DNA from: a virus
Reading direction: 5' to 3' (one strand)
DNA: 64,000 nucleotides
IMG/VR virus record: IMGVR_UViG_3300025362_000004
Location: 32,001-96,000 of that record
In this document: one piece after another, positions 666 to 14,405 of the stretch
Layout: every line of letters begins with the position of its first letter
Numbering within the stretch: the first letter of the stretch is position 1
Program-made: the position numbers and the translations under genes
Notes under the pieces: generated by a model
Database searches by the model: none
Told to the model about the DNA's origin: nothing
What the model saw: the letters and a program-made list of their open reading frames with translations, nothing else

Positions 666-669
666 CCGC

Positions 670-864: not shown

Positions 865-1210
865 GAATTTTGAACCGATATTAATTAAACTTATATTGTA
901 TTAGTATTAGTTTTGGTTAGTCTTTTCAGAAGAAATAAAAATAGTATTTTGAGAGCCGTTGAGGCTCTTTTTTATTTGGAGCGGCTTCATGGCTTTCGTT
1001 GGGGTGTTGTAAAAAAATTGCACAAATTCCTACTATACCCCTACATGCAGTCTGCCCTATTTCTGGCGGTTTTTTGGGATTGACCACCCCCCCCATATAG
1101 ATATTTAATTATTTATGCTATATCCCTTGACATGGTTGTCTATCCGTGATATAATTGACATATAAAGAGTTAGAAAACATCAACCCTTTAAAAAGAGAGA
1201 GAGCCAAAAA

Positions 1211-1768
1211 ATGGAAGATTACAAACAAATCTATGACTTATCAAAAAGAGATATACAAGCACTATGTATCAAGGAAATTGAGAGAGTTCAATTTTTACCT
1301 AGCACGAAAACAAACAGAGCAACAATTAAAAGAATGTTTACTATTTATGATATGGTTAATAATGCAAGTGAAAACTTTATTGCTCAAAATGTTGAGGGCG
1401 TTCGTGGAAATTTTGAAATAAGAGATTTCGAAATGTTTAATATTGGTTCAATGCTAGAGTGTTTAGTAGAACATTATACAACAGGAAAAGACCATTGTTC
1501 AAAATCATTTTTTGACCAAAATGACTTAGAAAACGGCTTCATGCCTTACGAAATAAAAACGAGTTTGGATAATGCAAGGTGTACTGTAAACACTAAAGCC
1601 CAAACTGTAAAGTTTATAAATAATAAAGGTTCATATATAATTAAAAAAAGCGCATATGAAACTATCAAAAAAGACAGTAAAAGCAAGTTATACGAGAATA
1701 TGGACTACTCGCAATTTGAAGGTGTAAGACTTAATCACTCGTTAAGTGTAAAGTTAGGGCTTATCTAA
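1211..1768 (+). CDS. Hypothetical protein, possible PD-(D/E)xK nuclease fold
   Basis: Own promoter (TTGACA 1127 ... TATAAT); ND-x7-EIK motif; family call is tentative. Confidence 0.6.
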   Translation: MEDYKQIYDLSKRDIQALCIKEIERVQFLPSTKTNRATIKRMFTIYDMVNNASENFIAQNVEGVRGNFEIRDFEMFNIGSMLECLVEHYTTGKDHCSKSFFDQNDLENGFMPYEIKTSLDNARCTVNTKAQTVKFINNKGSYIIKKSAYETIKKDSKSKLYENMDYSQFEGVRLNHSLSVKLGLI

Positions 1769-1804
1769 AAGCCCTAACACCCTAACGGGGGAAAGCGAGA
1801 TATT

Positions 1805-1975
1805 ATGAAAAAATTATATAGTTTAATAAATAAGATAACAAAAAACGATATATATTATGCAGTTCAAGATTATGACGGTATCATTAGAGTAATGGGGACA
1901 AGCAAGACCATAGTAAAGTATATGAATAAGAATAAGTTATGGAATAAGGTAAGCTATAGTGTAGTGATATTATAA
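1805..1975 (+). CDS. Small hypothetical protein (56 aa)
   Basis: ATG to TAA ORF downstream of the previous gene. Confidence 0.5.
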   Translation: MKKLYSLINKITKNDIYYAVQDYDGIIRVMGTSKTIVKYMNKNKLWNKVSYSVVIL

Positions 1976-2087
1976 TCACACTACATATACAGAAAGGAGT
2001 TGATGCCATTATGGTGTTATGAGTGACAGTCACACGTGAGTAAATACGCCAAGATAATAGGTGGTAGCGTGTGACAGTGTATTATGC

Positions 2088-2180
2088 ACACAGTGCCGTG
2101 TGTGTCGGTATGTGGGGTGTGTGTATCCACAGTACCATGTGTGTCGGTATATACCCACAGTGCCGTGTGTGTCGGTGTCG
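2088..2180. repeat. Three imperfect direct repeats CACAGTRCCRTGTGTGTCGGT
   Basis: Read directly from the sequence. Confidence 0.85.
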
Positions 2181-2211
2181 GTGGTAGACAACCAAATTTT
2201 TTTGTCTGTCT

Positions 2212-2347
2212 ATGTAAGCGCTTACATATAGGGTGATGTAAGCGCTTACATATAGGGTGATGTAAGCGCTTACATATAGGGTGATGTAAGCGCTTACATA
2301 TAGGGTGATGTAAGCGCTTACATATAGGGTGATGTAAGCGCTTACAT
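2212..2347. repeat. Tandem 24-bp repeat x6, each holding the perfect palindrome TGTAAGCGCTTACA (cre/LacI-family operator-like)
   Basis: Palindromes start at 2213, 2237, 2261, 2285, 2309 and 2333; fits the CcpA cre consensus TGWNANCGNTNWCA. Confidence 0.9.
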
Positions 2348-2439
2348 AGGTTGGTTGTCTGAGGCAGACAACCTAAAAAACTTGTAAAGTTTCTCAAAAT
2401 ATGATATAATTGGGTAAAGATAAAAAGGGGGTTCCAAAA

Positions 2440-2775
2440 ATGTGTGTAAAAGATATAGTAAAAAATAAAGGTGCAACTTTAACAAAAACATTAAGAAAGT
2501 CAATATTAAAAACGGGTTATATGGTTAGTATTAAAGGTTATGAAATACAAGTAGACGCAAGTGATTTTACAAAATTGAGTAACGAAATTTTTAAAACACA
2601 ACAACTTTCAAAATTTCATAAAAATTCTTATATTGGAATTTGGATTGAAGATGAAATTGCTTATATTGATTTAAGTGTTAATATTAAAGATTTAAAAGAA
2701 GCAACTAGCTTCGGAACAGAAAATGAGCAACTTGCAATTTATGGAATTAAAAATAGTGAATTACTTTATATTTAA
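2440..2775 (+). CDS. Early phage protein, possible SAM-lyase-like fold
   Basis: First cassette gene; GIW...YIDLS...A..FG...EQLAIY pattern; family call weak. Confidence 0.55.
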   Translation: MCVKDIVKNKGATLTKTLRKSILKTGYMVSIKGYEIQVDASDFTKLSNEIFKTQQLSKFHKNSYIGIWIEDEIAYIDLSVNIKDLKEATSFGTENEQLAIYGIKNSELLYI

Positions 2776-2893
2776 GGGCTGAAAAGTCCTTTTTATTTAA
2801 GGTAAGAGGCTGTCTGAGACAGACAACCTAAAAAACTTGTAAAGTTTCTCAAAATATGATATAATTGGGTAAAGATAAAAAGGGGGTTTCAAA

Positions 2894-3163
2894 ATGTTAG
2901 GACTAAATACGCCATTAACAGAGGAACAAAAAAACGAGGTTGAATATCAAACACACTTAGTATGTTTAAATTTAGTAAACACACAACGCAACTATTTAAT
3001 AATGCAAGCAAATGAGGAGTATTTCAACGTAATAGACGACTACGATTTCAAATTTGTAATACGCAATGATTTCAAATACTATGACGATATCAAATGGAAA
3101 TATGTAAACTTTAACAAAGTTAAAGCCTACATCGTAGAAACATTAACAGAGTTAAGAGCCTGA
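2894..3163 (+). CDS. Hypothetical early protein (ends in TGA inside the terminator hairpin)
   Basis: Cassette promoter, RBS and terminator. Confidence 0.8.
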   Translation: MLGLNTPLTEEQKNEVEYQTHLVCLNLVNTQRNYLIMQANEEYFNVIDDYDFKFVIRNDFKYYDDIKWKYVNFNKVKAYIVETLTELRA

Positions 3164-3259
3164 AAAAGGGCTCTTTTTTTATTAACGCAAGTGGGTTGTC
3201 TACCATAGACAACCTAAAAAACTTGCATTATTTCGGTGTATATGATATAATATAAGTAT

Positions 3260-3390
3260 AGAGATAAGGTAGTCAATACCTCATCTCTCCACCAAAACTT
3301 TATTAGGCAAACCCACACTAACACGTGGAACCGTTGAATAAGTAAACTCTCTCTAAAAAACCCTATTGTGGCGATAGGGTTTAGAGAATA
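3260..3390 (+). ncRNA. Putative small ncRNA cassette
   Basis: Cassette promoter but no RBS or ORF; hairpins at both ends. Confidence 0.5.
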
Positions 3391-3482
3391 TGCGCAAGGG
3401 GTTGTCTGCGGTAGACAACCTTTTTAATTTGACTTATTTCTTTATATATGGTATAATTACTATATAAGAAAGAGGTAATAAA

Positions 3483-3770
3483 ATGAAAAAAATAATAGTA
3501 TTAGTTGACGATAAAGAGAACTGTATTTTAGCGACGTTAGATTTAGAAAAGAGAAAAGTTGATGTAACACCAGTTAAAAGATTTAAAGAATTATCATTTT
3601 TAGGACAAGCAAGATTTCAAAATAAATTAGAAAGAGCACTTTTAGAAACAACCAGACTCAACGACGAAGAAAAAGAAAACGCAATCTCTAATTTAGTTTA
3701 TAAAAGATTTCTTGACGAGTCTCCAGAATTAGAAGAAATAATGGAATTAGTCGAATTAATGAAAGACTAA
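3483..3770 (+). CDS. Hypothetical early protein
   Basis: Cassette promoter, GAGG RBS and terminator. Confidence 0.85.
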   Translation: MKKIIVLVDDKENCILATLDLEKRKVDVTPVKRFKELSFLGQARFQNKLERALLETTRLNDEEKENAISNLVYKRFLDESPELEEIMELVELMKD

Positions 3771-3907
3771 TTAATCGAAAAAAGAAAGTAGTCCTCCTCC
3801 TCTACTTTCTTCTTTATTGTAAGTATTAGGTTGTCTACGGTAGACAACCTAAAAAACTTGCTATTATTGAGTTTATATGTTATAATATATATAAGAGGTG
3901 AGAGATT

Positions 3908-4147
3908 ATGTTAGTATTACAAAGAAAGCATTATATTATGAGTGAGATTTTAAACGGTGGGAATACCTTAAAAGTTATACCAAAAAATGGGCTTGACAAT
4001 TACAGAGTAGGTCAAACAGTTAGAGTTTTTCATGAAATTAACTCGCAGAAATACCGAGAAGGAAAAATCACAAAAGTAAGACAACACGCATTTGAGTTTG
4101 GTTTTAGTGTTGGAACAACTGAATTGCCGAGAGTTATTATTTTATAA
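3908..4147 (+). CDS. Hypothetical early protein
   Basis: Cassette promoter and RBS. Confidence 0.8.
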   Translation: MLVLQRKHYIMSEILNGGNTLKVIPKNGLDNYRVGQTVRVFHEINSQKYREGKITKVRQHAFEFGFSVGTTELPRVIIL

Positions 4148-4320
4148 ATTAAGACTTATAAGAGAAACAAATAGATAGGTCTGTGTTGAAGAAAAGGAAA
4201 CTTTGAAAAATCCTTTTCTTCTTTTATAATTCATGGTAGGTTGTCTGCCGTAGACAACCGAAAAGATTTGACATCATATCTAAATTATGATATAATATAA
4301 GTATAAAAGGGGTGAATTAA

Positions 4321-4575
4321 ATGGAATTTAAAACAGAGTTAAAAGTAAATATTCATTTTGAAAACAGAACAGTTTTTACAGATGAGGTAGTAAGGGATAG
4401 TATCACAGGCGAAGTTATCGCTGAATTAGTAAATGATATTGATATGGGAACTGCTACTACAGTAGAAAATGATATACTAAAAGATGGTTCTTGTATTTTA
4501 TCAGTAACAAAAGAAACAAGTGGCTTCAATGCTGAAACTGGGTTTTACGACTTAGATTTAACAATTGAAATGTAG
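4321..4575 (+). CDS. Acidic hypothetical early protein
   Basis: Cassette promoter and RBS. Confidence 0.85.
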   Translation: MEFKTELKVNIHFENRTVFTDEVVRDSITGEVIAELVNDIDMGTATTVENDILKDGSCILSVTKETSGFNAETGFYDLDLTIEM

Positions 4576-4742
4576 TTAAGGCTTATAGAATCTAAAATAG
4601 ATAGGCTTGTTTGGAAGAAAAGGAAACTTTGAAAACTCCTTTTCTTCCTTTATAAAATGATAGAGGTTGTCTGCAGTAGACAACCTTATTCGTTTGACTT
4701 AAAATAATATATATGGTATAATATATGTAAGAGGTGAGATGT

Positions 4743-5225
4743 ATGAAAAAGAAATTATATTTTGATATGGACGGTATTTTAGCCGATTTTGACAATGAGC
4801 CAAACGCTTTAACACGTTTTAAAAAAGAAAAAGGCTTTTTCGCAACACTACAACCAATAGAAGAAAATATTAAGGCTGTAAAAAAACTTATCGCAGAGGG
4901 TAAAAAAGTTTATATATTAAGTGTAAGTCCTAACAGACAAGCCGACACTGACAAAAAATCTTGGCTTAAGAAATATCTACCAGAAGTAAAAGAAAAGAAT
5001 ATATATATTATAAGGACAGGAACGCCAAAGAATAAAGCCGTAAAAGTAAAGAGAGCAATATTGTTTGACGATTACCGATTAAATGTTAGAAAATGGATTG
5101 ACGCTGGTGGCTACCTTGCTATAAAAATAACACAAAGAACAGATAAAAAACTCAAAGCCGAATATCAAGCAAGAACTTTAGAACAAAGTATTTCAAGATT
5201 AAAAATGTTTGGGGTGATACAATGA
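4743..5225 (+). CDS. HAD-family 5'(3')-deoxyribonucleotidase (NT5C-like)
   Basis: YFDMDGILADF, ILS, K..WL and LFDD motifs. Confidence 0.85.
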   Translation: MKKKLYFDMDGILADFDNEPNALTRFKKEKGFFATLQPIEENIKAVKKLIAEGKKVYILSVSPNRQADTDKKSWLKKYLPEVKEKNIYIIRTGTPKNKAVKVKRAILFDDYRLNVRKWIDAGGYLAIKITQRTDKKLKAEYQARTLEQSISRLKMFGVIQ

Positions 5226-5380
5226 AAACTATTTATATTGTGTCATGGGAAAGAAAACATGATATATTAAATGACGAAGAAATGGAAAAAATATTAAATG
5301 GTGGAGTAATAATAAAAGACGGTATAAGATATGTTTCTTTGTGGGGTTATATTGATATAAATATAGAGATTGAAAAATAA
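5222..5380 (+). CDS. Small hypothetical protein (ATGA overlap with the upstream gene)
   Basis: GGGGTGA RBS, ATG 5222, TAA 5378-5380. Confidence 0.65.
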   Translation: MKTIYIVSWERKHDILNDEEMEKILNGGVIIKDGIRYVSLWGYIDINIEIEK

Positions 5381-5520
5381 TCTCTTTTTCTTTCTTTTGA
5401 GTAGGTTGTCTGCGGTAGACAACCTAATTTATTTGACATTGTTTTCTTTCTATGGTATAATATATACATAAGATAAAGAAAGATATTACTAAACTTTATC
5501 AAAAAAAGGGGTAACATATT

Positions 5521-5781
5521 ATGGCTAAAGTAACAAAAAAAGTAACAGAGTTGAGCGATAAAGCGAAAGAAATTTTAGTGGTTTTGCAAGGTGCTGACAA
5601 GGGTTTGACACTACAAGAAATCACAAGCAAGGGCGTTGTAAAGCCTAATGGCTCACACTTAAAAGCACTTGAAAACAGAAATCTTGTTACAAGCGTTGAT
5701 GTTGAAATTATCGTGCCAACTACAAGAACAGTAAAATCTTATTCTGTTGTTGTGGCTGAAGAAGAAACACCAGCCGAGTAA
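5521..5781 (+). CDS. Winged-helix-like protein (paralog family A)
   Basis: LSDKAKEIL..L....LTLQEI...L.ALENRNLV...SY.V pattern. Confidence 0.7.
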   Translation: MAKVTKKVTELSDKAKEILVVLQGADKGLTLQEITSKGVVKPNGSHLKALENRNLVTSVDVEIIVPTTRTVKSYSVVVAEEETPAE

Positions 5782-5900
5782 AAAACTAAAGCGAGAAATC
5801 GCTTTTTTTTCTATTCGCAAGTGGTTGTCTGCGGTAGACAACCTAAATGACTTGACTTATTTTAGTATCTATGGTATAATATATATAAGAGGTGATAAAT

Positions 5901-6224
5901 ATGTTATTTAATAATGAGTATTATAATATTCTAAAAAGAGAAGAAAGAGAAATGAAACAAGAGGCTTTAATCGAAAGGTCAAAAGAATTTACTAAAATGG
6001 TTTTAAAAACCGAAGAAGCAATATTACATTTTAACTTTAGTAAAAAATTAAAAACTAAAATTAGTATAATAACTTATGTGTGGTTAGGTCTTGCTACTTT
6101 TAGAAAAGAGTTTAAAGAATATTTTTATAGAGAGTACAAAGAAATGGAAATTGATATAGTTAGTATAGAATATGACAAATCTGAATTCTGTCACGATTTC
6201 ATTCTCAAATTGAAAAAGAGATAA
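5901..6224 (+). CDS. Hypothetical early protein
   Basis: Cassette promoter and RBS. Confidence 0.8.
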   Translation: MLFNNEYYNILKREEREMKQEALIERSKEFTKMVLKTEEAILHFNFSKKLKTKISIITYVWLGLATFRKEFKEYFYREYKEMEIDIVSIEYDKSEFCHDFILKLKKR

Positions 6225-6324
6225 TCTCTCTTTTTTTATTGTAGTTAGGTTGTCTGCGGTAGACAACCTAAGTGACTTGACTTATTTTAGTATCTATGGT
6301 ATAATATATATAAGAGGTGAGAAT

Positions 6325-6786
6325 ATGAAAAACTTAATCAAAGTATTAAATGAAATTACAAACGAAAAAATTATTGTTTCGGCTCGTGGTGGTAGCCCCA
6401 TCATAAACACAAATCAGCGTAGCGTTATAAAGCAAAGAATAGAAAAAGCATTTTTAACAGACTTGCAAGAAATTTTTGCTGAAACCGATTTAGTCCATAT
6501 TATTGGTAGGGCTGAAAAAGGTATAATGTTAGCCATAGAGCATAATGATTTAGTAGATAATGCAAAAACTGAAGGCGAAATTGCTTTAGAATTTAATATC
6601 AAAGTAAGCAATTTAGATTTTGACACAGACACAGAAATTAGACTACACACAAAAGAACAAGCTAACAAAGAAATAGAAAAACAAGAAAAAGCACTTGCAA
6701 AGAAAAGAAAAATTGCAAGAGATAAAAAAGATAGAGCAGATAGAAAAAAAATAAAAGAACAAAAATTAGCCAAGTTAAACGGCTAG
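6325..6786 (+). CDS. Hypothetical protein with basic coiled-coil tail (paralog family B)
   Basis: EIALEFNIKVSNLDFD core shared with the ORFs at 13012 and 24521. Confidence 0.85.
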   Translation: MKNLIKVLNEITNEKIIVSARGGSPIINTNQRSVIKQRIEKAFLTDLQEIFAETDLVHIIGRAEKGIMLAIEHNDLVDNAKTEGEIALEFNIKVSNLDFDTDTEIRLHTKEQANKEIEKQEKALAKKRKIARDKKDRADRKKIKEQKLAKLNG

Positions 6787-6884
6787 TTTTTCTTTGACTT
6801 TCTAGAGGTTGTCTGCAGTAGACAACCTTCAATTTTTGACATTCTACTTAGTTTATGGTATAATATATATAAGAGGTGATAGAT

Positions 6885-7379
6885 ATGAAATTTAATGATG
6901 TAGTTGTAAAAATGGGCGAGTTAGTAAGTGGTTTTTTATCTGCTGTAAGTCCTGCGATATCTGTATCATTTGACAATTTTTCAAGTTTTGACCCTGAAGA
7001 AAATGTTATATATATAGGTCTATTGCCTATGACTGAAGAAAATCCCTATGACGATTTTCATAAAGGCTATTACAGAGCAAGTGGCTTTGATTATGAAAGT
7101 TATGGTATATCATTTGAAACTTTTACAATATTGCACGAGTTAGGACATATGGAAAGCAACCCAACAGAAAAAGAATACCAAGAATATTATAGATTAACAA
7201 ATATAATAAATAATTCAAATATGGAATTATCTACAAAAGCAAATAAATACTTTGCATTAGATTTAGAATATAAAGCAAATCAATGGGCTTTCAACTTCTT
7301 AAAAGATAATTTAGATATTGTTAGAGTGTTTGATAAAGCATTCAACCTCCTAAAAAGCGAATTACTCAATTGCGAGTAA
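6885..7379 (+). CDS. HExxH zinc-metallopeptidase-like protein (ImmA/IrrE-like)
   Basis: TILHELGH and E..AN.WA motifs. Confidence 0.7.
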   Translation: MKFNDVVVKMGELVSGFLSAVSPAISVSFDNFSSFDPEENVIYIGLLPMTEENPYDDFHKGYYRASGFDYESYGISFETFTILHELGHMESNPTEKEYQEYYRLTNIINNSNMELSTKANKYFALDLEYKANQWAFNFLKDNLDIVRVFDKAFNLLKSELLNCE

Positions 7380-7478
7380 TTTCTTTTTCTTCTGGGTTGG
7401 TTGTCTACGGCAGACAACCGCATTCGTTTGACTTAAGGCATTATATATGGTATAATATTTATATAAGAGGTGATAAAT

Positions 7479-8180
7479 ATGTTTTGTTCAAATACAACTA
7501 CAAGCGATTATATATTTTTAATAGTAACTCACGAGTGCGATAGGAATTGTGCTTTCTGCGTAGATAAGGACAGAGGAAAACAAGAATATATTACAATGGA
7601 AAATGCGGCGAAAGCAGTCCAATATTGTTTAGATAATGATATTAAAACGATTACTATATTAGGTGGCGAACCCACACTACACCCATTTATTGCATCAATA
7701 TGTTCTATGATAAGATATTATGGTATAAATATTGTAATGACTACAAATTACAGTAAACCTTCAGTTGTTGCTTACCTAGATAAATTTGTAAGTAGTTTTA
7801 ATATATCTTATTATGACCAAAAACACTTACCAAAGCAAAAAGATTTTAATGCCGACCTTACATTATCAAAGTTATTGTTTAAAGGTGGTATCGACACAAG
7901 AGAAAAACTAGACAACTTTATTGATAAACATCAAAATGATTTCAATGACTTAAAGTTCTCTACACTAACAGATATAAATAAGTTTACCCACGACCACAAA
8001 GACTTACTATTCTTAGACCAACTACCAATAGATAAAAAGGTAACTATTATGGGCGAAATTCAAGGTCATTATTATAGAGGTTATTTAATTAAGAGATTTG
8101 ATTTGAAAGCGACTGAAAATTATTATTGTCAAAGGTCAATGAAAATGCATACCAACGGGGAATTAAAAAGAGAGTGGTAA
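7479..8180 (+). CDS. Radical SAM protein
   Basis: CDRNCAFC (CX3CX2C), GGEPTL and TTN motifs. Confidence 0.92.
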   Translation: MFCSNTTTSDYIFLIVTHECDRNCAFCVDKDRGKQEYITMENAAKAVQYCLDNDIKTITILGGEPTLHPFIASICSMIRYYGINIVMTTNYSKPSVVAYLDKFVSSFNISYYDQKHLPKQKDFNADLTLSKLLFKGGIDTREKLDNFIDKHQNDFNDLKFSTLTDINKFTHDHKDLLFLDQLPIDKKVTIMGEIQGHYYRGYLIKRFDLKATENYYCQRSMKMHTNGELKREW

Positions 8181-8289
8181 CACTCTTTTATTTTAAATTG
8201 AGAAGGTTGTCTACGGCAGACAACCGCATTTGTTTGACTTAATAATAAATATATGGTATAATTAAGTAAAGAAAAAGGGGTATTAAGAA

Positions 8290-8853
8290 ATGGAATATTA
8301 CGGTAGAAATGATTTAAAGAGGGCTATCAAGAGATTTGAGAATGTCAAAAAGATAGCATTAAAATTAAAAGAGTTAGACATTCGTATAGGTCAACCGTTT
8401 AGGGTTAAACAGTTAGGCAATACGATTACTCATTCTGGGACTTTGTTTATGCAACTTGTAAACTCTGGAGTTCTAAAGGTTGTTGAAGTAAGGAAAGAGG
8501 TTTGCCCTTATATCAATAGAGGCGTTGAAACTGTTACAAGTTATAAGCGCATAACAGATGGCTGTATCATTAGCGCTGAAATGTATCACGATATGAATTG
8601 GCGCGGTAGAGATAAATATATTGGATGCCAAAAATCTTTTAAACCTGCTATGAGTAAATACAATGTATATGCAATTCAAGAGAATTGGCGTGGCATTCTT
8701 GTTAAAGAAATCAAAGAATTACAAGGTGCAGTTACGAACATTATTGCAAGAGAAACCAAATGGTTCGTAAACTCAGTTCAAGAATTAACTACTTTCTTTA
8801 AAAACGACGAATGGTCATTAAGAAGAGAAATAAGAAGAATTGAAAACTGCTAA
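8290..8853 (+). CDS. Hypothetical protein, possible winged helix with long wing
   Basis: QLVNSGVLKVVE...YNVY pattern. Confidence 0.75.
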   Translation: MEYYGRNDLKRAIKRFENVKKIALKLKELDIRIGQPFRVKQLGNTITHSGTLFMQLVNSGVLKVVEVRKEVCPYINRGVETVTSYKRITDGCIISAEMYHDMNWRGRDKYIGCQKSFKPAMSKYNVYAIQENWRGILVKEIKELQGAVTNIIARETKWFVNSVQELTTFFKNDEWSLRREIRRIENC

Positions 8854-8954
8854 AAGACCGCAAGGTCTTTTTTCCCGTGTAAGGTAGGTTGTCTGCCGTA
8901 GACAACCTAAAATATTTGACAAACTTAACTCTATATGGTATAATATATGTATAA

Positions 8955-9272
8955 GGTTGAGATAGAAACTCGTAAAAACGAAACATTGTTTAAACTCAAT
9001 TTGTAGTAGGAACCTTATAAAATGTGCTTATGTTAGCGAACCAGCGACTAACTAAAATTGCAAGTGTGAATGTGGAACTTGCAGGTATCCATTGCCTACA
9101 GCTATGGCGTAATTAGAAATTTTAACGACAAAAAAACCGTATACCTTGTTTGTGGTGCTTGTAACGATAACGAAAGTAACCGCCAAAGTCCTGTGGTAAA
9201 GGCAAAATAGGTTGAGAAATGTGGACTTTCTCATTAAATAAAGACTAATGCATAACTATTAGCCTATTTTTT
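8955..9272 (+). ncRNA. Putative ~310-nt structured ncRNA cassette
   Basis: Cassette promoter and terminator, no RBS-led ORF, several hairpins. Confidence 0.55.
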
Positions 9273-9371
9273 TTACGCAAGGAGTGGTTGTCTGCCACAG
9301 ACAACCGAATAATTTGACAATGTAAGCGTTTTATGATATAATATAGGTAGTTAAGAAAGGACTTGACAAAA

Positions 9372-10130
9372 ATGAGCGAAAAAGAAAAAATCTTAATTTT
9401 AGATACAGAGGTCAACGGGAAATTTGTTTATGATATTGGTTTTATTATCGCTGAGGAAAGCGAAAAGGGTTTTTATCACGCCGTAGAAAAGCATCAATTT
9501 TTAGTAGAACAGATATATTATAATCATAGATTATTTACTACTGATTATTACGCAAAGAAACGGAAAACTTATACAAAACTAATGAAAGGTAGAAATGCAA
9601 TATCTAAAAAGTTTGGTTATATAACACAAATAATCGCACACACCATCAAAAAACATGATATTAAAAAAGTTTATGCTTATAATAGTAATTATGATAAAAC
9701 AAGGTTTGCATTTACAAGTAATGATTTCAAAGTTATAAATCCGTTTGATAAAATAGAATGGCACGATATAATGGCTATCTCTAATCACTTTATACATTTA
9801 AGTGAAAAATATATCAATTTCGCTATTGAGAATGAGTATATCAATTCAAGTGGTTTTATTGAAACAACAGCCGAAACAACTTATCAATTTGTAGATAGCA
9901 ATATTGATTTTAAAGAGGAACACACCTCACTTGCTGACTGTGAAATAGAAATGGAAATATTAAACTATTGCATAGCAAAGGGATACAATAAAGAACAAGT
10001 TTACAAAACAAAAAATATCCCAAGTGATAAATTGCAAGTATTAACAGTAATTCACGAAAGCACCGAACATAAATTTGGTTATGTAAAAAGAAAAAATAGT
10101 TATTTAAAAAATCAAATTACTCTCACATAG
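9372..10130 (+). CDS. DEDDh 3'-5' exonuclease
   Basis: ILDTE, AYNSNYD and HTSLADC motifs. Confidence 0.88.
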   Translation: MSEKEKILILDTEVNGKFVYDIGFIIAEESEKGFYHAVEKHQFLVEQIYYNHRLFTTDYYAKKRKTYTKLMKGRNAISKKFGYITQIIAHTIKKHDIKKVYAYNSNYDKTRFAFTSNDFKVINPFDKIEWHDIMAISNHFIHLSEKYINFAIENEYINSSGFIETTAETTYQFVDSNIDFKEEHTSLADCEIEMEILNYCIAKGYNKEQVYKTKNIPSDKLQVLTVIHESTEHKFGYVKRKNSYLKNQITLT

Positions 10131-10240
10131 AGAGTTTTTTGCTTTTAATTTAATTAGGTTGTCTGCGGTAGACAACCGCATAAGTTTGACAAGTTTCTTT
10201 GTATATGGTATAATATAAGTATAGAAAAGGGGTAATAAAT

Positions 10241-10669
10241 ATGTTAAATGTAAATGTAGTAGACACTTACAGCGCGAGGGCGCTTGTCCGTGATTTTAGA
10301 ACTATCTATAGCAAGGTAGGGACATCAATTTTTAGGTCTAAAGAGGTTGGCGAACATTATCGCGCTGAATTAGAAAAGTTAAAAAGATACGGTCTTTGTA
10401 GAGTTGTAGAAACAAGACATCAACAAGTAGTAGATACAAGCCGTTGTTACAGAAACGATATGACTTTGGTAAATACAAGAAACCAAGATACAGTCGATGA
10501 AATTGAAAACGCCGTAGAGGGCGAAACTTACAAAGCCGTAAAAGGTAGAGTAATTAAAGGCGAGTTTTATACATACCAATTAACTTGTAATAGTATTAGT
10601 GACTTAATTGATGAAATCGAAAACCAATTATTCAAAGCCGGAAAAGATTTAAGAATGCATTTTTGTTAA
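10241..10669 (+). CDS. Hypothetical protein, related to the 8290 ORF
   Basis: LEKLKRYGLCRVVE...YTYQL pattern. Confidence 0.8.
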   Translation: MLNVNVVDTYSARALVRDFRTIYSKVGTSIFRSKEVGEHYRAELEKLKRYGLCRVVETRHQQVVDTSRCYRNDMTLVNTRNQDTVDEIENAVEGETYKAVKGRVIKGEFYTYQLTCNSISDLIDEIENQLFKAGKDLRMHFC

Positions 10670-10794
10670 AAGACCGAAAGGTCTTTTTTTGTTTTTGAGG
10701 TGGTTGTCTGCCGTAGACAACCTATTCAGAAGAAAATAAATTGACAAATGTTCGGCGATATGGTATAATCAGTATATAGAAAAGGGGTATTATT

Positions 10795-11085
10795 ATGAAA
10801 AAAATAAAAAAAGCATTAGACTTAATAGAAAATGAATTCTCAAAAATAATTGCAAAAATTACGGAAGATCTTGGGGTTGTAGTTTACTATTATGGCAAAT
10901 TAGAATTTCATCATGGGGTAGAATTTATCCAAAAAATTGAGTTTACAAGAAGTGACGAAGAATTCCTTTTTTACTTGACAGCAAATATAAAAGATATGAA
11001 ATTTAAAGCCGATATAAATAATATATTTCATCATAATTCATTTGAATTTGAAACTGTAAAGAGAATTGTAAAAGACTTTAACTAG
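10795..11085 (+). CDS. Hypothetical early protein
   Basis: Cassette promoter and RBS. Confidence 0.8.
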   Translation: MKKIKKALDLIENEFSKIIAKITEDLGVVVYYYGKLEFHHGVEFIQKIEFTRSDEEFLFYLTANIKDMKFKADINNIFHHNSFEFETVKRIVKDFN

Positions 11086-11188
11086 TCTTTTTTAAAAATT
11101 AAAGTGGTTGTCTGCCGTAGACAACCGCATTTGTTTGACTTAAAACGTTATGTATGATATAATATAAGTATAGAAAAGGGGTATCAAA

Positions 11189-11578
11189 ATGAAAAAAATG
11201 TTATTATTATTAGTAGTATTAGTTATTGGGTTCGGTTTTGTAGGTTGCGACCAAGCGAGTGTGGCCGCCGATAATATCAGCACAGGTGCAGACAATTTTG
11301 AAGTTCTTAGAAAAGTAGTTTTCTATAATGGGATTACAGACGAGTATATGTATGCAATTGAAGGCTATTGTTCTATCAAGCAAGACAACATTGATAATCA
11401 ATTAGAAGTAACTTGTAAAACGGGCGAAGACGCCTATGTAAAACACTATTTATATTTGAGTGATAATATCACATACATGGTTATTCAGTTAGAGACTGTC
11501 AATGTAGACACCTATCATTATAGGTTTATTTTAAGACCGAATGTTTTAATTCCTGATATTGAAGTCGATTTACCGTAG
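11189..11578 (+). CDS. Conserved phage lipoprotein
   Basis: Lipobox FVGC; ADNFEV.R.VVFYNGITD.Y..IEGYCSI motif. Confidence 0.85.
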   Translation: MKKMLLLLVVLVIGFGFVGCDQASVAADNISTGADNFEVLRKVVFYNGITDEYMYAIEGYCSIKQDNIDNQLEVTCKTGEDAYVKHYLYLSDNITYMVIQLETVNVDTYHYRFILRPNVLIPDIEVDLP

Positions 11579-11696
11579 TTAAATTAAGACCTTCGGGTCT
11601 TTTTTTTGTGAGTTGAATGGTTGTCTGCCGTAGACAACCGCATTTATTTGACTTAAAGCGTTGTGTATGGTATAATATATGTATGAGGTGATAGGT

Positions 11697-12110
11697 GTGG
11701 AAAAGTTAATATTTGAAGATAAAATGAGTGGTATTAGAGTTAATTTAAGTAAAGAATTAAGAGAAGAAATGAACGAGATAACAATGGGCTTAGATTATAT
11801 GACACCGAAAGACGTCCCTGATTTTGTTTTGTACGGTATTTGGTGGAGTTTTAAAGGTATGTTTTTAGAGATACTTTTTGAGAAAGACAGTACTAACGTA
11901 AAACTTAGAAAATCTGGTAAAACTGAAGAAATTTTAGTTAGTGAGTATTATTCTAAAAGTCTCTTTGACAGTTTAGTTGGTATGCTAGATAACGACGACC
12001 AAATAAAAGTTTGGCTATATACAAATCGCAAAGACATTTGGGAACAATTAGTTGATAAATTCGGTAGCGAAAAAAATGTGTTTGACGAATATATTAGATT
12101 TAACCATTAG
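11697..12110 (+). CDS. Hypothetical early protein
   Basis: Cassette promoter, GAGGTG RBS, GTG start. Confidence 0.75.
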   Translation: MEKLIFEDKMSGIRVNLSKELREEMNEITMGLDYMTPKDVPDFVLYGIWWSFKGMFLEILFEKDSTNVKLRKSGKTEEILVSEYYSKSLFDSLVGMLDNDDQIKVWLYTNRKDIWEQLVDKFGSEKNVFDEYIRFNH

Positions 12111-12222
12111 GTTAAATCTTTTTTATTTTAAGGTGGTTGTCTGCCGTAGACAACCTAAAATAATTGACAATTTAAAATATATATGATATAATATGTATAT
12201 AGAATTAAAAAGGAGAAATAAT

Positions 12223-12615
12223 ATGAAAAAGATTTATGCGTTCGGTTTCACCTACGATGATTTTGCGGACGGTGGTTTTAGTCCTAATTTTATTAGTTTT
12301 AGTAAAGAAGAATGTTTTAATAAATTAAAAAAAGAAAATAATGACTATGCAGTTGTGTCCTATGATTTTGAAAAAGATTTTGATTATGACGAAATTGAAA
12401 TAATTGCTATTGTTAGAGATGGCCAATTTACTATTTTAACAGATTTAGAAGAATTAAAAGAAAAAGCATTTCAGTTGGGTAAAAATTTAATATCAACTAT
12501 GAACATTATTAACGAACCAAATGAAGAACAATATACTTTCATAGATAATGAGTTTAAAAAAATGGGTTTACCAAATTTTGCTTCATTCCAAGTTTTTGAA
12601 AGGCTTTTTACATAA
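12223..12615 (+). CDS. Hypothetical early protein
   Basis: Cassette promoter and AGGAG RBS. Confidence 0.85.
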   Translation: MKKIYAFGFTYDDFADGGFSPNFISFSKEECFNKLKKENNDYAVVSYDFEKDFDYDEIEIIAIVRDGQFTILTDLEELKEKAFQLGKNLISTMNIINEPNEEQYTFIDNEFKKMGLPNFASFQVFERLFT

Positions 12616-12785
12616 GCCTTTTTTTTATAAATTGTATGGTTGTCTGCCGTAGACAACCAATTAGTTGAATGTTTAGGTTGTCTGCCAAAAATGAACGAAT
12701 AAAGGAATGAGTTTACTTTTCGTTCACTGTTCAGGAGAAAAATAAATATACGCCGACCGTTATTTACCATACCAAGAAAACCCCA

Positions 12786-12897
12786 TTCATTATTCACTAT
12801 TCATTATACGCAAGAACACCGTGCCGTTCATTATTCATTATTAACACGCAAGAAGCAGCAGGCCTATGTTCATTATTCATTATTAAACACGCAAGAG
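12786..12897. repeat. Three TTCATTATTCA...ACGCAAGA direct repeats (iteron-like)
   Basis: Read directly; AT-rich flanks. Confidence 0.75.
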
Positions 12898-13011
12898 TGA
12901 ACTAAAAATTATTTTATTTTTTATTTCTAAATACACTTGACAAAGTTGCCGAAATATGGTATAATATATATAAGAGATAAGGAAAATATTTTATCTCAAA
13001 AAGGGGTAATA

Positions 13012-13410
13012 ATGAAAAATTTAGAAAAGTTGTTTAATGAATTAAGAGTAAGTGAAATTCAAGTTTCCAAGCGTAAAGGTGCAAAAGTAATCAGTCAGAA
13101 ACAGTTGTCCACTATTAAACAGTCAATCATGAACGCAATATTGAATGATATCAAAGAGGTATTAAGTGAATCTGAGTTCGTGGGTATTAACGAAAACGGC
13201 ATTGTAATTGAAATAATGAACGACCAAGTTGACTCATTATCATTTGAAATGAATCCTAAAATTAAAGGTTTAGAGTTCGACGCTTACTATTCAGTATTGG
13301 ACTTCAATATGGAACAAGAAGCCAAACGTGAACGTGCGGCTCAACGAAAGAAAGATGCCAAAGCGAAATTCACTAATGCGCAAGCACAAAGGAAAACTAC
13401 TGCAAAGTAG
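13012..13410 (+). CDS. Hypothetical protein (paralog family B)
   Basis: SFEMNPKIKGLEFDA core and basic tail. Confidence 0.85.
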   Translation: MKNLEKLFNELRVSEIQVSKRKGAKVISQKQLSTIKQSIMNAILNDIKEVLSESEFVGINENGIVIEIMNDQVDSLSFEMNPKIKGLEFDAYYSVLDFNMEQEAKRERAAQRKKDAKAKFTNAQAQRKTTAK

Positions 13411-13969: not shown

Positions 13970-14215
13970 ATGGCTAAAGGTAAATTGACTGAAGGAACTG
14001 CGAACGCGTTAGAGGCATTAAAGGGCTTAGGCGGAAAAGCAACTTTCGCAGATGTTAAAGCAACTGGTGCTAAAGTAGGTACTTCTAACTTCACTGCATT
14101 GGTAAATGCTGGGTTAGTAACTGCTGAAAAAGTAACCAAAGTTAAGACTGTTGAGTACGAAGTTAACGAGTACACAGTAGTTGAAGTTGAAGCAACTGAA
14201 GAAGTTGCTGAGTAA
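13970..14215 (+). CDS. Winged-helix-like protein (paralog family A)
   Basis: LTEGTANALEALK...FTALVNAGLV...NEY; strongly biased codon usage. Confidence 0.8.
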   Translation: MAKGKLTEGTANALEALKGLGGKATFADVKATGAKVGTSNFTALVNAGLVTAEKVTKVKTVEYEVNEYTVVEVEATEEVAE

Positions 14216-14265
14216 TACCCCACCTGAATAAATAGAGTTGGGGAGTGCCGAACTCCCCGTTACAT

Positions 14266-14342
14266 GCTCCCATAGACAAAACGGTAAAGTCACTAGGCTT
14301 TCAACCTAGAATTTGCGGGTTCAAACCCCGTTGGGAACACCA
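14266..14342 (+). tRNA. tRNA-Glu(TTC)
   Basis: Cloverleaf, loop CTTTCAA, CCA end. Confidence 0.9.
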
Positions 14343-14346
14343 AATG

Positions 14347-14405
14347 GCCAATATGCGAATGGTCGCAACCAATTCGCCGCAGGGCTAAACCCTGCTAGGT
14401 CTCCA
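14347..14405 (+). ncRNA. D-armless tRNA-Cys-like RNA
   Basis: GGC start, GCA in hairpin loop, T-like arm, U73-CCA end. Confidence 0.4.

What the first reader, a model, noticed from the sequence alone, without database searches (positions are those of the whole stretch)
2353..12658. Integron-like array of 20 self-contained cassettes delimited by a 21-bp palindrome
Seen: 21 copies of GGTTGTCT-N5-AGACAACC (spacer usually RCNGY, giving a near 10-1-10 dyad). Each unit runs palindrome, -35 and extended -10, RBS, usually one gene or ncRNA, then a terminator. Neighbouring promoter blocks are near-identical (2353-2432 vs 2808-2887; 5823-5895 vs 6248-6320). The full palindrome was not seen elsewhere in the window. 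Established: T4-type PeSL elements shuffle ORFans by recombination between repeated promoter/stem-loop units. Inference: a modular anti-host gene library with its own recombination or master-regulator site.
Basis: partly seen in the sequence, partly recalled or inferred. Interest (0 to 1): 0.82.

Follow-up and report, generated by a model that had tools for sequence, protein, structure and literature searches.

The report
Phage early-gene array with shared operator
An uncultured salt-lake phage carries twenty small early genes in a row, each with its own strong promoter preceded by the same 21-base palindrome, which most likely is a shared control site while the repeated promoter blocks let the genes be swapped between related phages.

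Summary
GGTTGTCT-N5-AGACAACC occurs 21 times (20 exact, 1 with one mismatch) in window 2353-12658 and nowhere else in the 123.6-kb phage genome. None is expected by chance.

Twenty copies sit upstream of near-consensus sigma-A promoters with an extended -10. The promoter-side arm lies exactly 8 nt from the -35 in 18 of 20 copies here and in 22 of 22 copies in five related metagenome contigs. The linker sequence and the 4-6 nt spacer vary.

Nineteen of 21 copies have a separate intrinsic terminator just upstream, so the palindrome is not the main terminator.

No tyrosine, serine or HUH recombinase was found in the genome, so it is not an integron.

Relatives keep the arms unchanged but carry different cassettes in a different order. 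One sample carries a precise loss of cassette 9, with the crossover inside the shared promoter block.

Best reading: T4 PeSL-like promoter-terminator blocks that shuffle ORFan cassettes by homologous recombination, plus an invariant operator for coordinated control of the early promoters, probably shut-off. The binding protein is unidentified. A dimeric winged-helix protein encoded in the array (cassette 8) is a candidate.

Verdict: new variant of a known kind, moderate interest.

The parts
2353..2807 (+). Unit 1. Palindrome 2353-2373; promoter TTGTAA-17-TGATATAAT (2382-2410); gene c1 2440-2775 (111 aa); terminator 2774-2791.
   Evidence: c1 matches phrog_17808
2808..3193 (+). Unit 2. Palindrome with one mismatch, 2808-2828 (GGCTGTCT...); promoter block matches unit 1 at 78 of 80 positions; gene c2 2894-3163 (89 aa); terminator 3154-3175.
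3194..3399 (+). Unit 3. Palindrome 3194-3214; promoter TTGCAT-17-TGATATAAT; no ORF. A structured RNA of about 141 nt is a candidate (3252-3392).
   Evidence: RNA fold z-score -5.3; no Rfam match
3400..3828 (+). Unit 4. Palindrome 3400-3420; promoter 3429-3457; gene c4 3483-3770 (95 aa).
3829..4238 (+). Unit 5. Palindrome 3829-3849; promoter TTGCTA-17-TGTTATAAT; gene c5 3908-4147 (79 aa).
4239..4664 (+). Unit 6. Palindrome 4239-4259; promoter 4268-4296; gene c6 4321-4575 (84 aa).
   Evidence: 36% aa homologue in L015
4665..5403 (+). Unit 7, bicistronic. Palindrome 4665-4685; promoter 4694-4722; c7a 4743-5225 (160 aa, NT5C-type 5'-deoxynucleotidase); c7b 5222-5380 (52 aa).
   Evidence: Pfam NT5C E 3.8e-13; phrog_2643
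5404..5822 (+). Unit 8. Palindrome 5404-5424; promoter 5433-5461; 5' leader of about 55 nt; c8 5521-5781 (86 aa). c8 is a winged-helix-like protein predicted to form a homodimer, and is the candidate palindrome binder.
5823..6247 (+). Unit 9. Palindrome 5823-5843; promoter 5852-5880; c9 5901-6224 (107 aa). This unit is missing from a contig of run X3.
   Evidence: joint 5847->6273 in X3
6248..6806 (+). Unit 10. Palindrome 6248-6268; promoter 6277-6305; c10 6325-6786 (153 aa). Paralogues lie at 13012-13410 and about 24698-25006 (minus strand).
6807..7398 (+). Unit 11. Palindrome 6807-6827; promoter 6836-6864; c11 6885-7379 (164 aa, weak metalloprotease-like).
   Evidence: Pfam Peptidase_M78 16.9 bits, below the cut-off; phrog_87 E 7.3e-6
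7399..8204 (+). Unit 12. Palindrome 7399-7419; promoter 7428-7456; c12 7479-8180 (233 aa, radical SAM).
   Evidence: Pfam Radical_SAM E 2.3e-12
8205..8886 (+). Unit 13. Palindrome 8205-8225; promoter 8234-8262; c13 8290-8853 (187 aa).
8887..9285 (+). Unit 14. Palindrome 8887-8907; promoter 8916-8944; no ORF of 50 aa or more and none with a Shine-Dalgarno site. Nature of the product unknown.
   Evidence: RNA fold z-score -0.06; no Rfam match
9286..10156 (+). Unit 15. Palindrome 9286-9306; linker of 7 nt; promoter 9314-9342; c15 9372-10130 (252 aa, exonuclease-like).
   Evidence: phrog_20187 E 1.4e-24 and phrog_192 weak; linker
10157..10701 (+). Unit 16. Palindrome 10157-10177; promoter 10186-10214; c16 10241-10669 (142 aa).
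10702..11105 (+). Unit 17. Palindrome 10702-10722; linker of 18 nt, one helical turn more than the usual 8; promoter 10741-10769; c17 10795-11085 (96 aa).
11106..11618 (+). Unit 18. Palindrome 11106-11126; promoter 11135-11163; c18 11189-11578 (129 aa, Phage_VG64 family). My reading of the sequence suggests a lipoprotein signal (LVIGFGFVGC).
   Evidence: Pfam PF25682 E 5.5e-48; phrog_478
11619..12134 (+). Unit 19. Palindrome 11619-11639; promoter 11648-11676; c19 11697-12110 (137 aa, GTG start).
12135..12637 (+). Unit 20. Palindrome 12135-12155; promoter 12164-12192; c20 12223-12615 (130 aa); terminator 12598-12622.
   Evidence: 69% aa homologue in L012
12638..12686 (+). Terminal palindrome 12638-12658 with no promoter, followed by a truncated copy GGTTGTCTGCC at 12676-12686.
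1127..1155 (+). Consensus promoter outside the array. It carries a single left arm GGTTGTCT (1134-1141) in the spacer between -35 and -10, upstream of gene 1211-1768 (185 aa, no family).
2186..2348 (+). Left border. Lone right arm at 2186-2193, then 5.7 perfect copies of a 24-bp unit that holds the 16-bp palindrome ATGTAAGCGCTTACAT (2212-2348).
13970..14215 (+). Paralogue of c8 (81 aa) outside the array. Two tandem consensus promoters without the palindrome (13761, 13871) lie upstream.

Best explanation
The region is the hyperplastic early-gene region of an uncultured phage of about 123 kb that appears to be virulent. Its DNA polymerase III alpha is 42-43% identical to that of SPbeta-type phages; otherwise it is remote from cultured phages.

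Twenty units run head to tail. Each unit consists of:
- the 21-bp dyad, spanning about -64 to -44 from the inferred transcription start;
- an 8-nt linker;
- a near-consensus sigma-A promoter with an extended -10;
- a Shine-Dalgarno site and a small gene;
- an intrinsic terminator.

Inferred mechanism. The dyad is a double-stranded DNA operator for one sequence-specific protein, probably dimeric, that acts on RNA polymerase at all 20 promoters together. I rate repression (shut-off of the early set) about 2:1 over activation. The binder is not identified. The best candidate is the c8 family of small winged-helix proteins, encoded in the array and, as a paralogue, just outside it.

Separately, the junction blocks of about 100 bp (terminator, dyad, promoter, ribosome-binding site) supply homology for general recombination. 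That recombination deletes, adds and permutes cassettes, as T4-type PeSLs do.

Shown here: the anatomy, the register to the -35, the invariance of the arms, the variation among relatives, one deletion variant, and the absence of the recombinase families searched. Inferred: protein binding, the sign of regulation, early timing, and the identity of the binder.
For: Register to the promoter.
- The promoter-side arm lies 8 nt from the -35 in 18 of 20 copies here. The others are 7 nt and 18 nt, the latter one helical turn more.
- It is 8 nt in 22 of 22 copies in five relatives, although the linker sequences differ widely.

Sequence constraint.
- Both arms are identical in 20 of 21 copies here and in 18 of 18 full dyads in relatives.
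- The 60 nt after the dyad have a median pairwise identity of only 55%.
- Homologous cassette proteins in relatives are 36-69% identical.
- The information content of the arms equals that of the -10 and -35.
- The single arm change, in copy 2, is not compensated on the other arm.

Not the terminator. 19 of 21 copies have their own hairpin plus T-run upstream.

A distinct promoter class. Of 31 strict consensus promoters in the genome, 16 carry the dyad, all of them in the array, and 15 do not. The dyad is therefore not needed for promoter activity.

Hint of repression. The only left arm outside the array and its border lies inside the -35/-10 spacer of another consensus promoter.

Precedent. 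SPbeta has the repeated element SPBRE in ten promoter regions, bound by the master repressor MrpR (PMC10516654, passages read).

Shuffling.
- Contig L009 holds c11-like, c8-like and c10-like genes in that order, then three cassettes not found in this genome; the order here is c8, c9, c10, c11.
- L015 holds c1-like, c6-like and c7a-like genes with c2-c5 absent.
- L012 continues with another cassette where the array ends here.
- Run X3 has a 3871-bp contig joining 5847 to 6273, losing cassette 9. The crossover lies within 48 shared nt downstream of the one mismatch that follows the dyad.

Candidate binder c8.
- Family members give weak hits to winged-helix families. PadR is hit by 6 of 59 members; HTH_20, HTH_5, HTH_IclR, LexA_DNA_bind and HxlR by 1-2 each.
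- The AlphaFold2 model has pLDDT 81.5.
- Nearly all of the top 50 VIA-align rows are winged-helix domains. The best Z is 6.4 (rmsd 2.1, 56 aligned), a middling value.
- The homodimer model scores 0.62 against a best of 3 controls of 0.00. That mark was reached by 20 of 30 solved homodimers and 1 of 23 solved single chains. Runs agree in at least 95% of contacts and the partner's pLDDT is at least 79. I used my own alignment, so these counts hold only roughly.
- Some relatives are tandem fusions of two copies.
Against: - No binding protein is shown. c8 is one of several possible DNA binders; a Cro/C1-type HTH protein at 29096-29362 is another.
- In relatives the spacer between the arms is 4 nt (1 copy), 5 nt (10 copies) or 6 nt (7 copies), and 3-4 copies lack the left arm. 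A rigid dimer would tolerate this poorly, whereas a hairpin would tolerate it well.
- The promoters are already near-consensus, so no regulator is needed for activity. A site centred near -54 does not overlap the core promoter, so simple occlusion cannot explain repression.
- No RNA data exist, so early timing is inferred only from promoter type and standard-code genes.
- No SPbeta MrpR homologue was found by tblastn, and the dyad is unlike the SPBRE-like motif I derived from SPbeta.
- Near-identical strains in four other samples keep the same cassette order apart from the cassette 9 variant. Shuffling is therefore seen only over longer divergence.
- The relatives are short contigs of 1-3.5 kb.
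Confidence: 0.45

Rival explanations
1. Same site and same kind of binding protein, but it acts as an activator or recruiter. A dimer centred near -54 would contact the RNA polymerase alpha C-terminal domain and boost or time the 20 promoters. From memory, the Ogr/Delta activators act this way at the dyad centred near -55 of P2/P4 late promoters.
For: - The centre near -54 and the strict helical register, including the copy with a 10-nt longer linker, fit a protein that touches RNA polymerase from upstream.
- 4 of 20 promoters have a weak -35: TTGTAA twice, TTGCAT and TTGCTA.
- Copies with only the right arm keep the 8-nt register.
Against: - 16 of 20 promoters have TTGAC at the -35, and all 20 have a 17-nt spacer and TGNTATAAT. 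Fifteen equally good promoters work without the dyad.
- A lone arm inside a promoter spacer fits repression better.
Confidence: 0.2
2. The dyad works as a nucleic-acid hairpin and not as a protein operator. This would make it the 'SL' of a PeSL. It could be a second attenuator or insulator hairpin in read-through RNA, or a cruciform that responds to supercoiling; the phage encodes gyrase A and B. On this view its sequence stays uniform because recombination copies the blocks.
For: - Spacer lengths of 4, 5 and 6 nt occur with unchanged arms.
- The hairpins are stable: DNA -5.8 to -8.9 kcal/mol with z-scores -3.8 to -6.2 in the 4 copies folded, and RNA -10.3 to -15.7 kcal/mol in all 21.
- The consensus scan of the 21 dyads terminator-like on the + strand, because T-rich linkers follow them.
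- PeSLs have a stem-loop just upstream of the early promoter (PMC2839356, passages read).
- Gyrase genes are present.
Against: - 19 of 21 units already have a canonical terminator.
- Many linkers are A-rich and not T-rich.
- No compensatory change is seen in 39 full dyads, and the one arm change is uncompensated.
- A fixed 8-nt distance to the -35 has no role for an RNA hairpin.
- Right-arm-only copies at promoters cannot fold.
- The flanks diverge to 55% identity while the arms stay identical. Copying alone would homogenise the flanks too.
Confidence: 0.15
3. The dyad is the core site of a site-specific or structure-specific recombination system, so the array would be a phage analogue of an integron. 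Cassettes would be cut and joined at the dyad by an unrecognised phage enzyme or a host enzyme.
For: - An 8-5-8 dyad resembles the layout of recombinase core sites (comparison from memory).
- Cassette boundaries in relatives coincide with the blocks.
- Four broken copies end at or in the spacer: window 12676 (left arm plus GCC only); L010:933, L015:316 and L015:489 (spacer-like bases plus right arm only).
- In RB49 one PeSL crossover mapped to the loop (PMC2839356).
Against: - No Phage_integrase, Resolvase, Recombinase or Y1_Tnp domain was found at E <= 1 in six frames of a genome rated 100% complete.
- The one mapped event crossed over in the promoter part, downstream of the dyad.
- Every cassette has its own promoter, unlike integron cassettes.
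- The 8-nt register to the -35 has no use for recombination.
- Contig divergence points in other samples are scattered through genes and not focused on dyads (table 7; only 24 of 187 loose ends were shown).
Confidence: 0.1

Closest known systems
PeSLs (promoter-early stem-loops) of T4-type phages RB49, phi1, PST and nt-1 (PMC2839356, passages read; PMC4122927, abstract read)
   Same: - Composite repeated intergenic motif: a stem-loop, an A/T-rich stretch and a host-type early promoter.
- Concentrated in a region of small ORFan genes.
- Insertions, deletions and replacements between relatives are bounded by the motifs.
- No dedicated recombinase; homologous recombination between neighbouring motifs.
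   Different: - The phage lineage is unrelated and the promoter type points to a Gram-positive host.
- The conserved stem-loop here is not the terminator. A separate, non-conserved terminator precedes it in 19 of 21 units.
- The arms are invariant, also across relatives, and are locked 8 nt from the -35. This points to a protein site.
- Mini-circles were not tested.
SPBRE operators bound by the master repressor MrpR (YopR) of Bacillus phage SPbeta (PMC10516654, passages read)
   Same: - A short repeated element in about ten promoter regions of one large phage, bound by one regulator that controls them together.
- This phage's DNA polymerase III alpha is nearest to that of SPbeta-type phages, at 42-43% identity.
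   Different: - The sequences are unrelated: the motif I derived from seven SPbeta upstream regions is A/T-rich.
- Its position relative to the promoter varies in SPbeta.
- No MrpR, integrase, AimR or YonO homologue was found here.
- SPbeta is temperate, whereas no integrase was found here.
- There are 21 sites in one 10-kb tandem array and not dispersed sites.
Multi-site phage and plasmid operator networks, all cited from memory and not read here: mycobacteriophage L5 stoperators (gp71), phiC31 conserved inverted repeats, and KorB OB palindromes of plasmid RK2
   Same: Many copies of one short site spread over intergenic regions give one protein control of many transcription units. Some RK2 OB sites lie just upstream of the -35.
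   Different: - L5 sites are asymmetric and act by blocking elongation.
- The phiC31 and L5 systems belong to temperate phages.
- No ParB/KorB-like protein was found here. The weak ParB_N hit lies in a GIY-YIG/HTH endonuclease.
Integron (IntI, attI, attC cassettes), from memory
   Same: A tandem array of single-gene cassettes separated by a palindromic element.
   Different: - No integrase was found.
- Each cassette has its own promoter and terminator.
- The site is a 21-bp perfect dyad and not a 57-141-bp imperfect attC.
Host-takeover or pre-early gene clusters of virulent phages (SPO1 terminal-repeat module, T5 pre-early region), from memory
   Same: - Many small genes under strong host-type early promoters.
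- A 5'-deoxynucleotidase is among them (c7a; T5 has dmp).
   Different: - No sign that this region is a terminal repeat: contigs run through the right border and depth is the same inside and outside.
- As far as I recall, a shared dyad upstream of every promoter is not described for those modules.

Membership tests
Integron | An IntI-type tyrosine recombinase encoded next to the array | tested here: not met
   PF00589 gave no match at E <= 1 in six frames of the whole 123.6-kb genome. Resolvase, large-serine Recombinase and Y1_Tnp also gave none.
Integron | attC sites: imperfect 57-141-bp palindromes with R/L boxes and extrahelical bases (definition from memory) | tested here: not met
   The site is a 21-bp dyad with perfect 8-bp arms.
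Integron | Promoterless cassettes expressed from a common Pc promoter | tested here: not met
   20 of 20 cassettes have their own sigma-A promoter. 19 of 21 junctions have a terminator.
PeSL (T4-type promoter-early stem-loop) | Repeated composite motif of a host sigma-70/sigma-A consensus early promoter, an A/T-rich upstream stretch and an adjacent stem-loop | tested here: met
   Consensus of 18 blocks; promoters; hairpin energies.
PeSL (T4-type promoter-early stem-loop) | The stem-loop acts as a terminator or attenuator | not testable with these tools
   A separate terminator is present in 19 of 21 units. 7 of the 21 dyads look terminator-like on the + strand in a consensus scan.
PeSL (T4-type promoter-early stem-loop) | Located in hyperplastic regions rich in ORFans, with indels and replacements between relatives bounded by the motifs | tested here: met
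   12 of 19 proteins have no family hit. Content and order differ in 5 related contigs. Cassette 9 loss in run X3.
PeSL (T4-type promoter-early stem-loop) | Mini-circles formed by exchange between neighbouring motifs | not testable with these tools
   Only assembled contigs were available.
PeSL (T4-type promoter-early stem-loop) | Belongs to a T4-like myovirus | tested here: not met
   The nearest cultured relatives by DNA polymerase III alpha are SPbeta-type phages at 42-43% identity. There is no DNA match to any phage record.
SPBRE/MrpR system of SPbeta | A MrpR (YopR) homologue is encoded | tested here: not met
   tblastn of 13 SPbeta proteins against the genome matched only the terminase YonF. 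This is a sequence-level test only; a remote fold relative is not excluded.
SPBRE/MrpR system of SPbeta | The SPBRE sequence motif | tested here: not met
   The motif I derived from seven SPbeta upstream regions is A/T-rich and unlike the dyad. The published logo was not seen because figures are not held.
SPBRE/MrpR system of SPbeta | One repeated element in many promoter regions under a single regulator | tested here: inconclusive
   The repeated element at 20 promoters is shown. The single regulator is inferred.
Winged-helix DNA-binding proteins (for c8) | Winged-helix fold | tested here: inconclusive
   - c8 itself has no Pfam hit.
- Family members give weak PadR/HTH hits in 6 or fewer of 59.
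- VIA-align best Z is 6.4, with nearly all top rows winged-helix.
- Foldseek found no match at E <= 0.001.
- ESM Atlas structure rows give TM 0.65-0.76 to HTH clusters.

The most novel reading that the evidence does not exclude
The invariant dyad is both an operator and the break-and-join point of a cassette-exchange system that needs no canonical integrase. This would be a phage analogue of an integron. A hairpin- or dyad-specific protein, perhaps the c8-type winged-helix dimer or an unrecognised nuclease, would target recombination to the arm/spacer boundary. That would explain the four copies broken at the spacer and the permuted cassette order in relatives.
Probability: 0.1. Interest if true: 0.85.

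Novelty: new variant of a known kind. Interest (0 to 1): 0.5.

Why it matters
PeSL-type promoter-terminator blocks have so far been described in T4-like phages of Gram-negative hosts. Here the same design appears in an unrelated phage whose promoters point to a Gram-positive host, with one extra feature: a perfectly conserved dyad locked to the promoter.

If the dyad is a shared operator, one protein switches about twenty early genes together. Any cassette that recombines into the array would then arrive already wired into that switch. This would link gene shuffling with regulation in a testable way.

The array is also a compact catalogue of 19 small early proteins, 12 of them without any family, that are candidates for host takeover or counter-defence.

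Tried and rejected
Collapsed long terminal repeat (SPO1/T5-like), rejected.
- Contigs from runs X3 and X5 run through the right border (7221-14935 and 9420-16782), and contig depth is alike inside and outside the array.
- These are contigs and not reads, so the test is weak.

Host regulon or prophage copies.
- The scan of genome contigs for the dyad gave 120 or more loci, each with a single site, in unrelated taxa.

Relatives in IMG/VR.
- The dyad scan gave 3 single-site loci.
- The right-arm-plus-promoter scan gave 5 loci with no dyad and no cassette homologue.
- The search for related loci with c15 and with the c8 alignment found no relative.

Cultured relatives.
- No megablast match for 2000-13000.
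- No tblastn match for a 416-aa late protein.

ParB/KorB-like binder, rejected. The weak ParB_N hit (E 0.015) lies in a GIY-YIG/HTH endonuclease.

Other genome-wide searches.
- Sigma factor: no Sigma70_r2.
- RecT and RecA: none.

Gene 1211-1768 (185 aa), downstream of the promoter that holds a half-site: no Pfam hit and no usable ESM Atlas hit.

c8.
- No solved-structure relative by sequence.
- The first AlphaFold2 model (4 sequences, pLDDT 77) gave no Foldseek match at E <= 0.001.

Rfam. Nothing for units 3 and 14 at E <= 0.1.

RNA expression. No RNA holder was listed among the sequencing runs.

Weak joints. The 2412->12552 joint in X4 and X5 has only 23 letters on one side and was not used. 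The other short-sided joints were also not used.

L014. Bases 2001-2580 are 100% identical to window 10827-11406, but bases 1-2000 encode bacterial metX/metW-like genes (my reading of the translations). I treated it as a probable chimeric contig and left it out of the counts. L011 is a single chance site with no similarity and was also left out.

Literature. A search for a described dyad upstream of phage early promoters found nothing relevant. This single search does not show that none is in print.

Supplements of the papers were not seen; the SPBRE logo and site list may be there.

Full report
**The observation.** The pattern GGTTGTCT-N5-AGACAACC has 20 exact copies in the window, all between 2353 and 12658; none appeared in 100 shuffles. 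Allowing mismatches adds one copy at 2808 with a single change, for 21 in all. The window is bases 32001-96000 of a single 123,582-bp contig whose ends overlap by about 150 bp. The full dyad occurs nowhere else in that genome. Lone arms are rare: one left arm at window 1134, one truncated copy at 12676, and right arms at 2186, 26436 and 52903.

**Anatomy of a unit.**
- Twenty of the 21 dyads are followed by a sigma-A-type promoter. All 20 have a 17-nt spacer and TGNTATAAT. Sixteen have TTGAC at the -35; four have TTGTAA (twice), TTGCAT or TTGCTA.
- The distance from the right arm to the -35 is 8 nt in 18 copies, 7 nt in one and 18 nt in one. With a start site about 7 nt past the -10 (my inference), the dyad spans about -64 to -44.
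- Nineteen of 21 dyads have a separate hairpin plus T-run upstream, with the T-run starting 10-24 nt before the dyad. The dyad is therefore an extra element between the previous terminator and the next promoter.
- Seventeen units hold one ORF with a Shine-Dalgarno site and one holds two. Two hold no ORF of 50 aa or more. Unit 3 would give a well-folded RNA of about 141 nt (z-score -5.3). Unit 14 would not (z-score -0.06). Neither matches Rfam.
- Coding sequence fills 73% of the array.

**What the cassettes encode.**
- Three of 19 proteins pass Pfam cut-offs: c7a is an NT5C 5'-deoxynucleotidase, c12 a radical SAM protein, and c18 belongs to Phage_VG64.
- PHROGs adds c1 (phrog_17808), c11 (a weak metalloprotease hit) and c15 (phrog_20187, with a weak exonuclease-subunit hit). 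It labels the c18 family a recombination directionality factor. I do not rely on that label, because c18 begins with what looks to me like a lipoprotein signal.
- Twelve of 19 have no hit in either library.
- Only c10 has paralogues, at 13012-13410 and near 24698-25006.

**The genome around it.**
- The phage encodes DNA polymerase III alpha, gyrase A and B, a DnaB-like helicase, RecJ and a UvrD-like helicase.
- It carries about 40 tRNAs, a tmRNA, a GOLLD RNA and a c-di-GMP-I riboswitch.
- Its polymerase is nearest to SPbeta-type Bacillus phages, at 42-43% identity. There is no DNA match to any phage record. Of 13 SPbeta proteins only the terminase matches.
- Six-frame HMM searches found no Phage_integrase, Resolvase, large-serine Recombinase, Y1 transposase, RecT or RecA. 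The record is rated 100% complete. I therefore treat the phage as probably virulent and without a dedicated site-specific recombinase.

**The dyad is tied to the promoter.**
- A metagenome scan for the dyad plus TTGAC returned seven short contigs. One is a chance site (L011). One is identical to the window over 580 bp but joined to bacterial-looking genes (L014). Both were set aside.
- In the other five, all 22 right arms lie exactly 8 nt from a -35, although the linker sequences differ.
- Their arms are unchanged in 18 of 18 full dyads. Their spacers are 5 nt (10 copies), 6 nt (7 copies) or 4 nt (1 copy). Four copies lack the left arm, one of them at a contig end.
- Within the window the 60 nt after the dyad have a median pairwise identity of 55%. 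Cassette homologues in relatives are 36-69% identical in protein. The arms are therefore under much stronger constraint than their surroundings, comparable to the -10 and -35.
- The genome has 31 strict consensus promoters. Sixteen carry the dyad, all in the array; 15 do not. The dyad marks a class of promoters and is not a requirement for promoter activity.
- The only left arm away from the array sits inside the -35/-10 spacer of another consensus promoter, at 1127.

**Reading of the dyad.**
- A fixed register to the -35 across about 40 diverged copies, the one copy shifted by a helical turn, the invariant sequence without compensatory change, and the separate terminators together point to a sequence-specific protein site that acts on RNA polymerase.
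- I favour shut-off over activation by about 2:1, for two reasons. The promoters are already near-consensus, and a half-site within a core promoter fits repression.
- The closest documented precedent in a related lineage is SPbeta. Its repeated element SPBRE lies in ten promoter regions and is bound by the master repressor MrpR (PMC10516654, passages read).
- The motif I derived from seven SPbeta upstream regions is unrelated in sequence and variable in position. No MrpR homologue was found here.
- The variable spacer and the right-arm-only copies are the main evidence against a rigid dimeric binder. They keep a hairpin reading alive.

**A candidate binder.**
- c8 (86 aa) lies in the array. 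A paralogue of 81 aa lies just outside it, behind two promoters that lack the dyad.
- A relative, L009, has a c8-like gene behind three tandem promoters, two of them without the dyad.
- A profile search found 113 representative clusters, some of them tandem fusions of two copies.
- Members give weak hits to winged-helix families; PadR is hit by 6 of 59.
- The deeper AlphaFold2 model has pLDDT 81.5. Nearly all of its top 50 structural neighbours are winged-helix domains, but the best Z of 6.4 is middling.
- The homodimer prediction scored 0.62 against a best of 3 controls of 0.00. That mark was reached by 20 of 30 solved homodimers and 1 of 23 solved single chains. Runs agree in at least 95% of contacts and pLDDT is at least 79. 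I used my own alignment, so the counts hold only roughly.
- This makes c8 a reasonable candidate and nothing more. A Cro/C1-type protein at 29096-29362 is another.

**Shuffling.**
- L009 carries c11-like, c8-like and c10-like genes in that order, then three cassettes absent from this genome. L015 carries c1-like, c6-like and c7a-like genes with nothing like c2-c5 between them. L012 has two unknown cassettes, a c20 homologue (69% identity), and then a further promoter and cassette where this array ends. L013 has a c10-like gene and unknown ones.
- One cassette in L010 is homologous to a gene in this phage's other early region, near 24113-24232.
- Laying assembled contigs of four other salt-lake runs on 1-17000 shows the same phage at 99% identity or more, with the same cassette order in long contigs. 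There is one exception. A 3871-bp contig in X3 joins 5847 to 6273, removing exactly cassette 9. The join lies within 48 nt shared by the flanking blocks, and the skipped part has lower summed depth (2.5 against about 7).
- The only mismatch between those two blocks lies just after the dyad. The crossover therefore took place in the promoter part, as expected for homologous exchange.
- This matches what was described for T4-type PeSLs (PMC2839356, passages read; PMC4122927, abstract read).
- Four broken dyads that end at or in the spacer are the only hint of events targeted to the dyad itself.

**Verdict.** The array is real and highly non-random. It is not an integron. It works like a PeSL region but is not a member by descent, and it adds an invariant promoter-locked dyad that is best read as a shared operator. 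I rate it a new variant of a known kind. Interest is moderate, because both components have precedents while their combination, and the unidentified binder, are open and testable.

Noticed in passing
genome 1-29000 (outside the window; loci L001, L002) and window 56868-56942: The late or structural genes appear to read TGA as a sense codon. With TGA read through, the longest frames rise from 418 aa at most to 1802, 897, 679 and 605 aa. Nothing similar happens in the array or the replication region. Under table 4 the portal becomes 513 aa and the terminase 599 aa, with 2 and 4 in-frame TGA codons. A tRNA that ARAGORN missed has the anticodon loop CUUCAAA, i.e. anticodon UCA. Recoding of late genes is a described phenomenon (bioRxiv 10.1101/2021.08.26.457843; search listing only).
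   Followed up: partly
window 3-272 and 399-566: thyX (Pfam Thy1) is split into two ORFs that match profile positions 4-79 and 117-171. An intervening element or a break is possible.
   Followed up: no
window 2212-2348: Directly upstream of the first unit lie 5.7 perfect tandem copies of a 24-bp unit holding the 16-bp palindrome ATGTAAGCGCTTACAT. This is a second, different binding-site-like array. Three copies of cacagtgccgtgtgtgtcggt-like repeats lie before it at 2090-2180.
   Followed up: no
window 12785-12886 and 13426-13590: Iteron-like TTCATTATTCATTATTAA repeats occur in direct and inverted orientation on both sides of gene 13012-13410 (a c10 paralogue). A 10-bp periodic ATTTTAGCCC tract lies at 13490-13547. 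This may be an origin or another control region.
   Followed up: no
window 13761, 14585, 16074(-), 22061(-), 41496: A second class of consensus promoters shares TAGATTTGACT ... AATCTRTGATATAAT. That gives a dyad AGATT/AATCT spanning the -35 and the spacer, which may be the operator of another regulator.
   Followed up: no
window 14486-14567 and 14640-15480: Beside tRNA-Glu (14266) there is a short tmRNA-like match of 65 bits. A G+C-richer, apparently non-coding stretch of about 800 nt follows, behind a consensus promoter at 14585, with no Rfam match. It could be a large structured RNA.
   Followed up: no
window 50645-51156, 55009-55083, 45588-45979: A GOLLD RNA (150.4 bits, at the gathering score), a c-di-GMP-I riboswitch and a full tmRNA are encoded by the phage, together with about 40 tRNAs.
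   Followed up: no
L014 1-2000: A metagenome contig joins bacterial metX/metW-like genes (G+C 0.41 for the whole contig) to phage cassette 17 at window 10827, with 100% identity over the phage part. It is probably an assembly chimera, but capture of cassettes by a bacterium is not excluded.
   Followed up: partly
genome 112886-113866 and 30097-31068: Two GIY-YIG endonuclease genes are present. One has HTH domains and lies just upstream of DNA polymerase III alpha. The other is readable only with TGA as sense.
   Followed up: no
window 3185, 3393, 5816, 9275, 12808, 12846, 12889, 13726, 13736: The motif (A)CGCAAG recurs just upstream of several dyads, here and in relatives, and in the right-border repeats. 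CGCAAG occurs 38 times on the + strand against 8 on the - strand. Its meaning is unknown, and strand composition bias may contribute.
   Followed up: no
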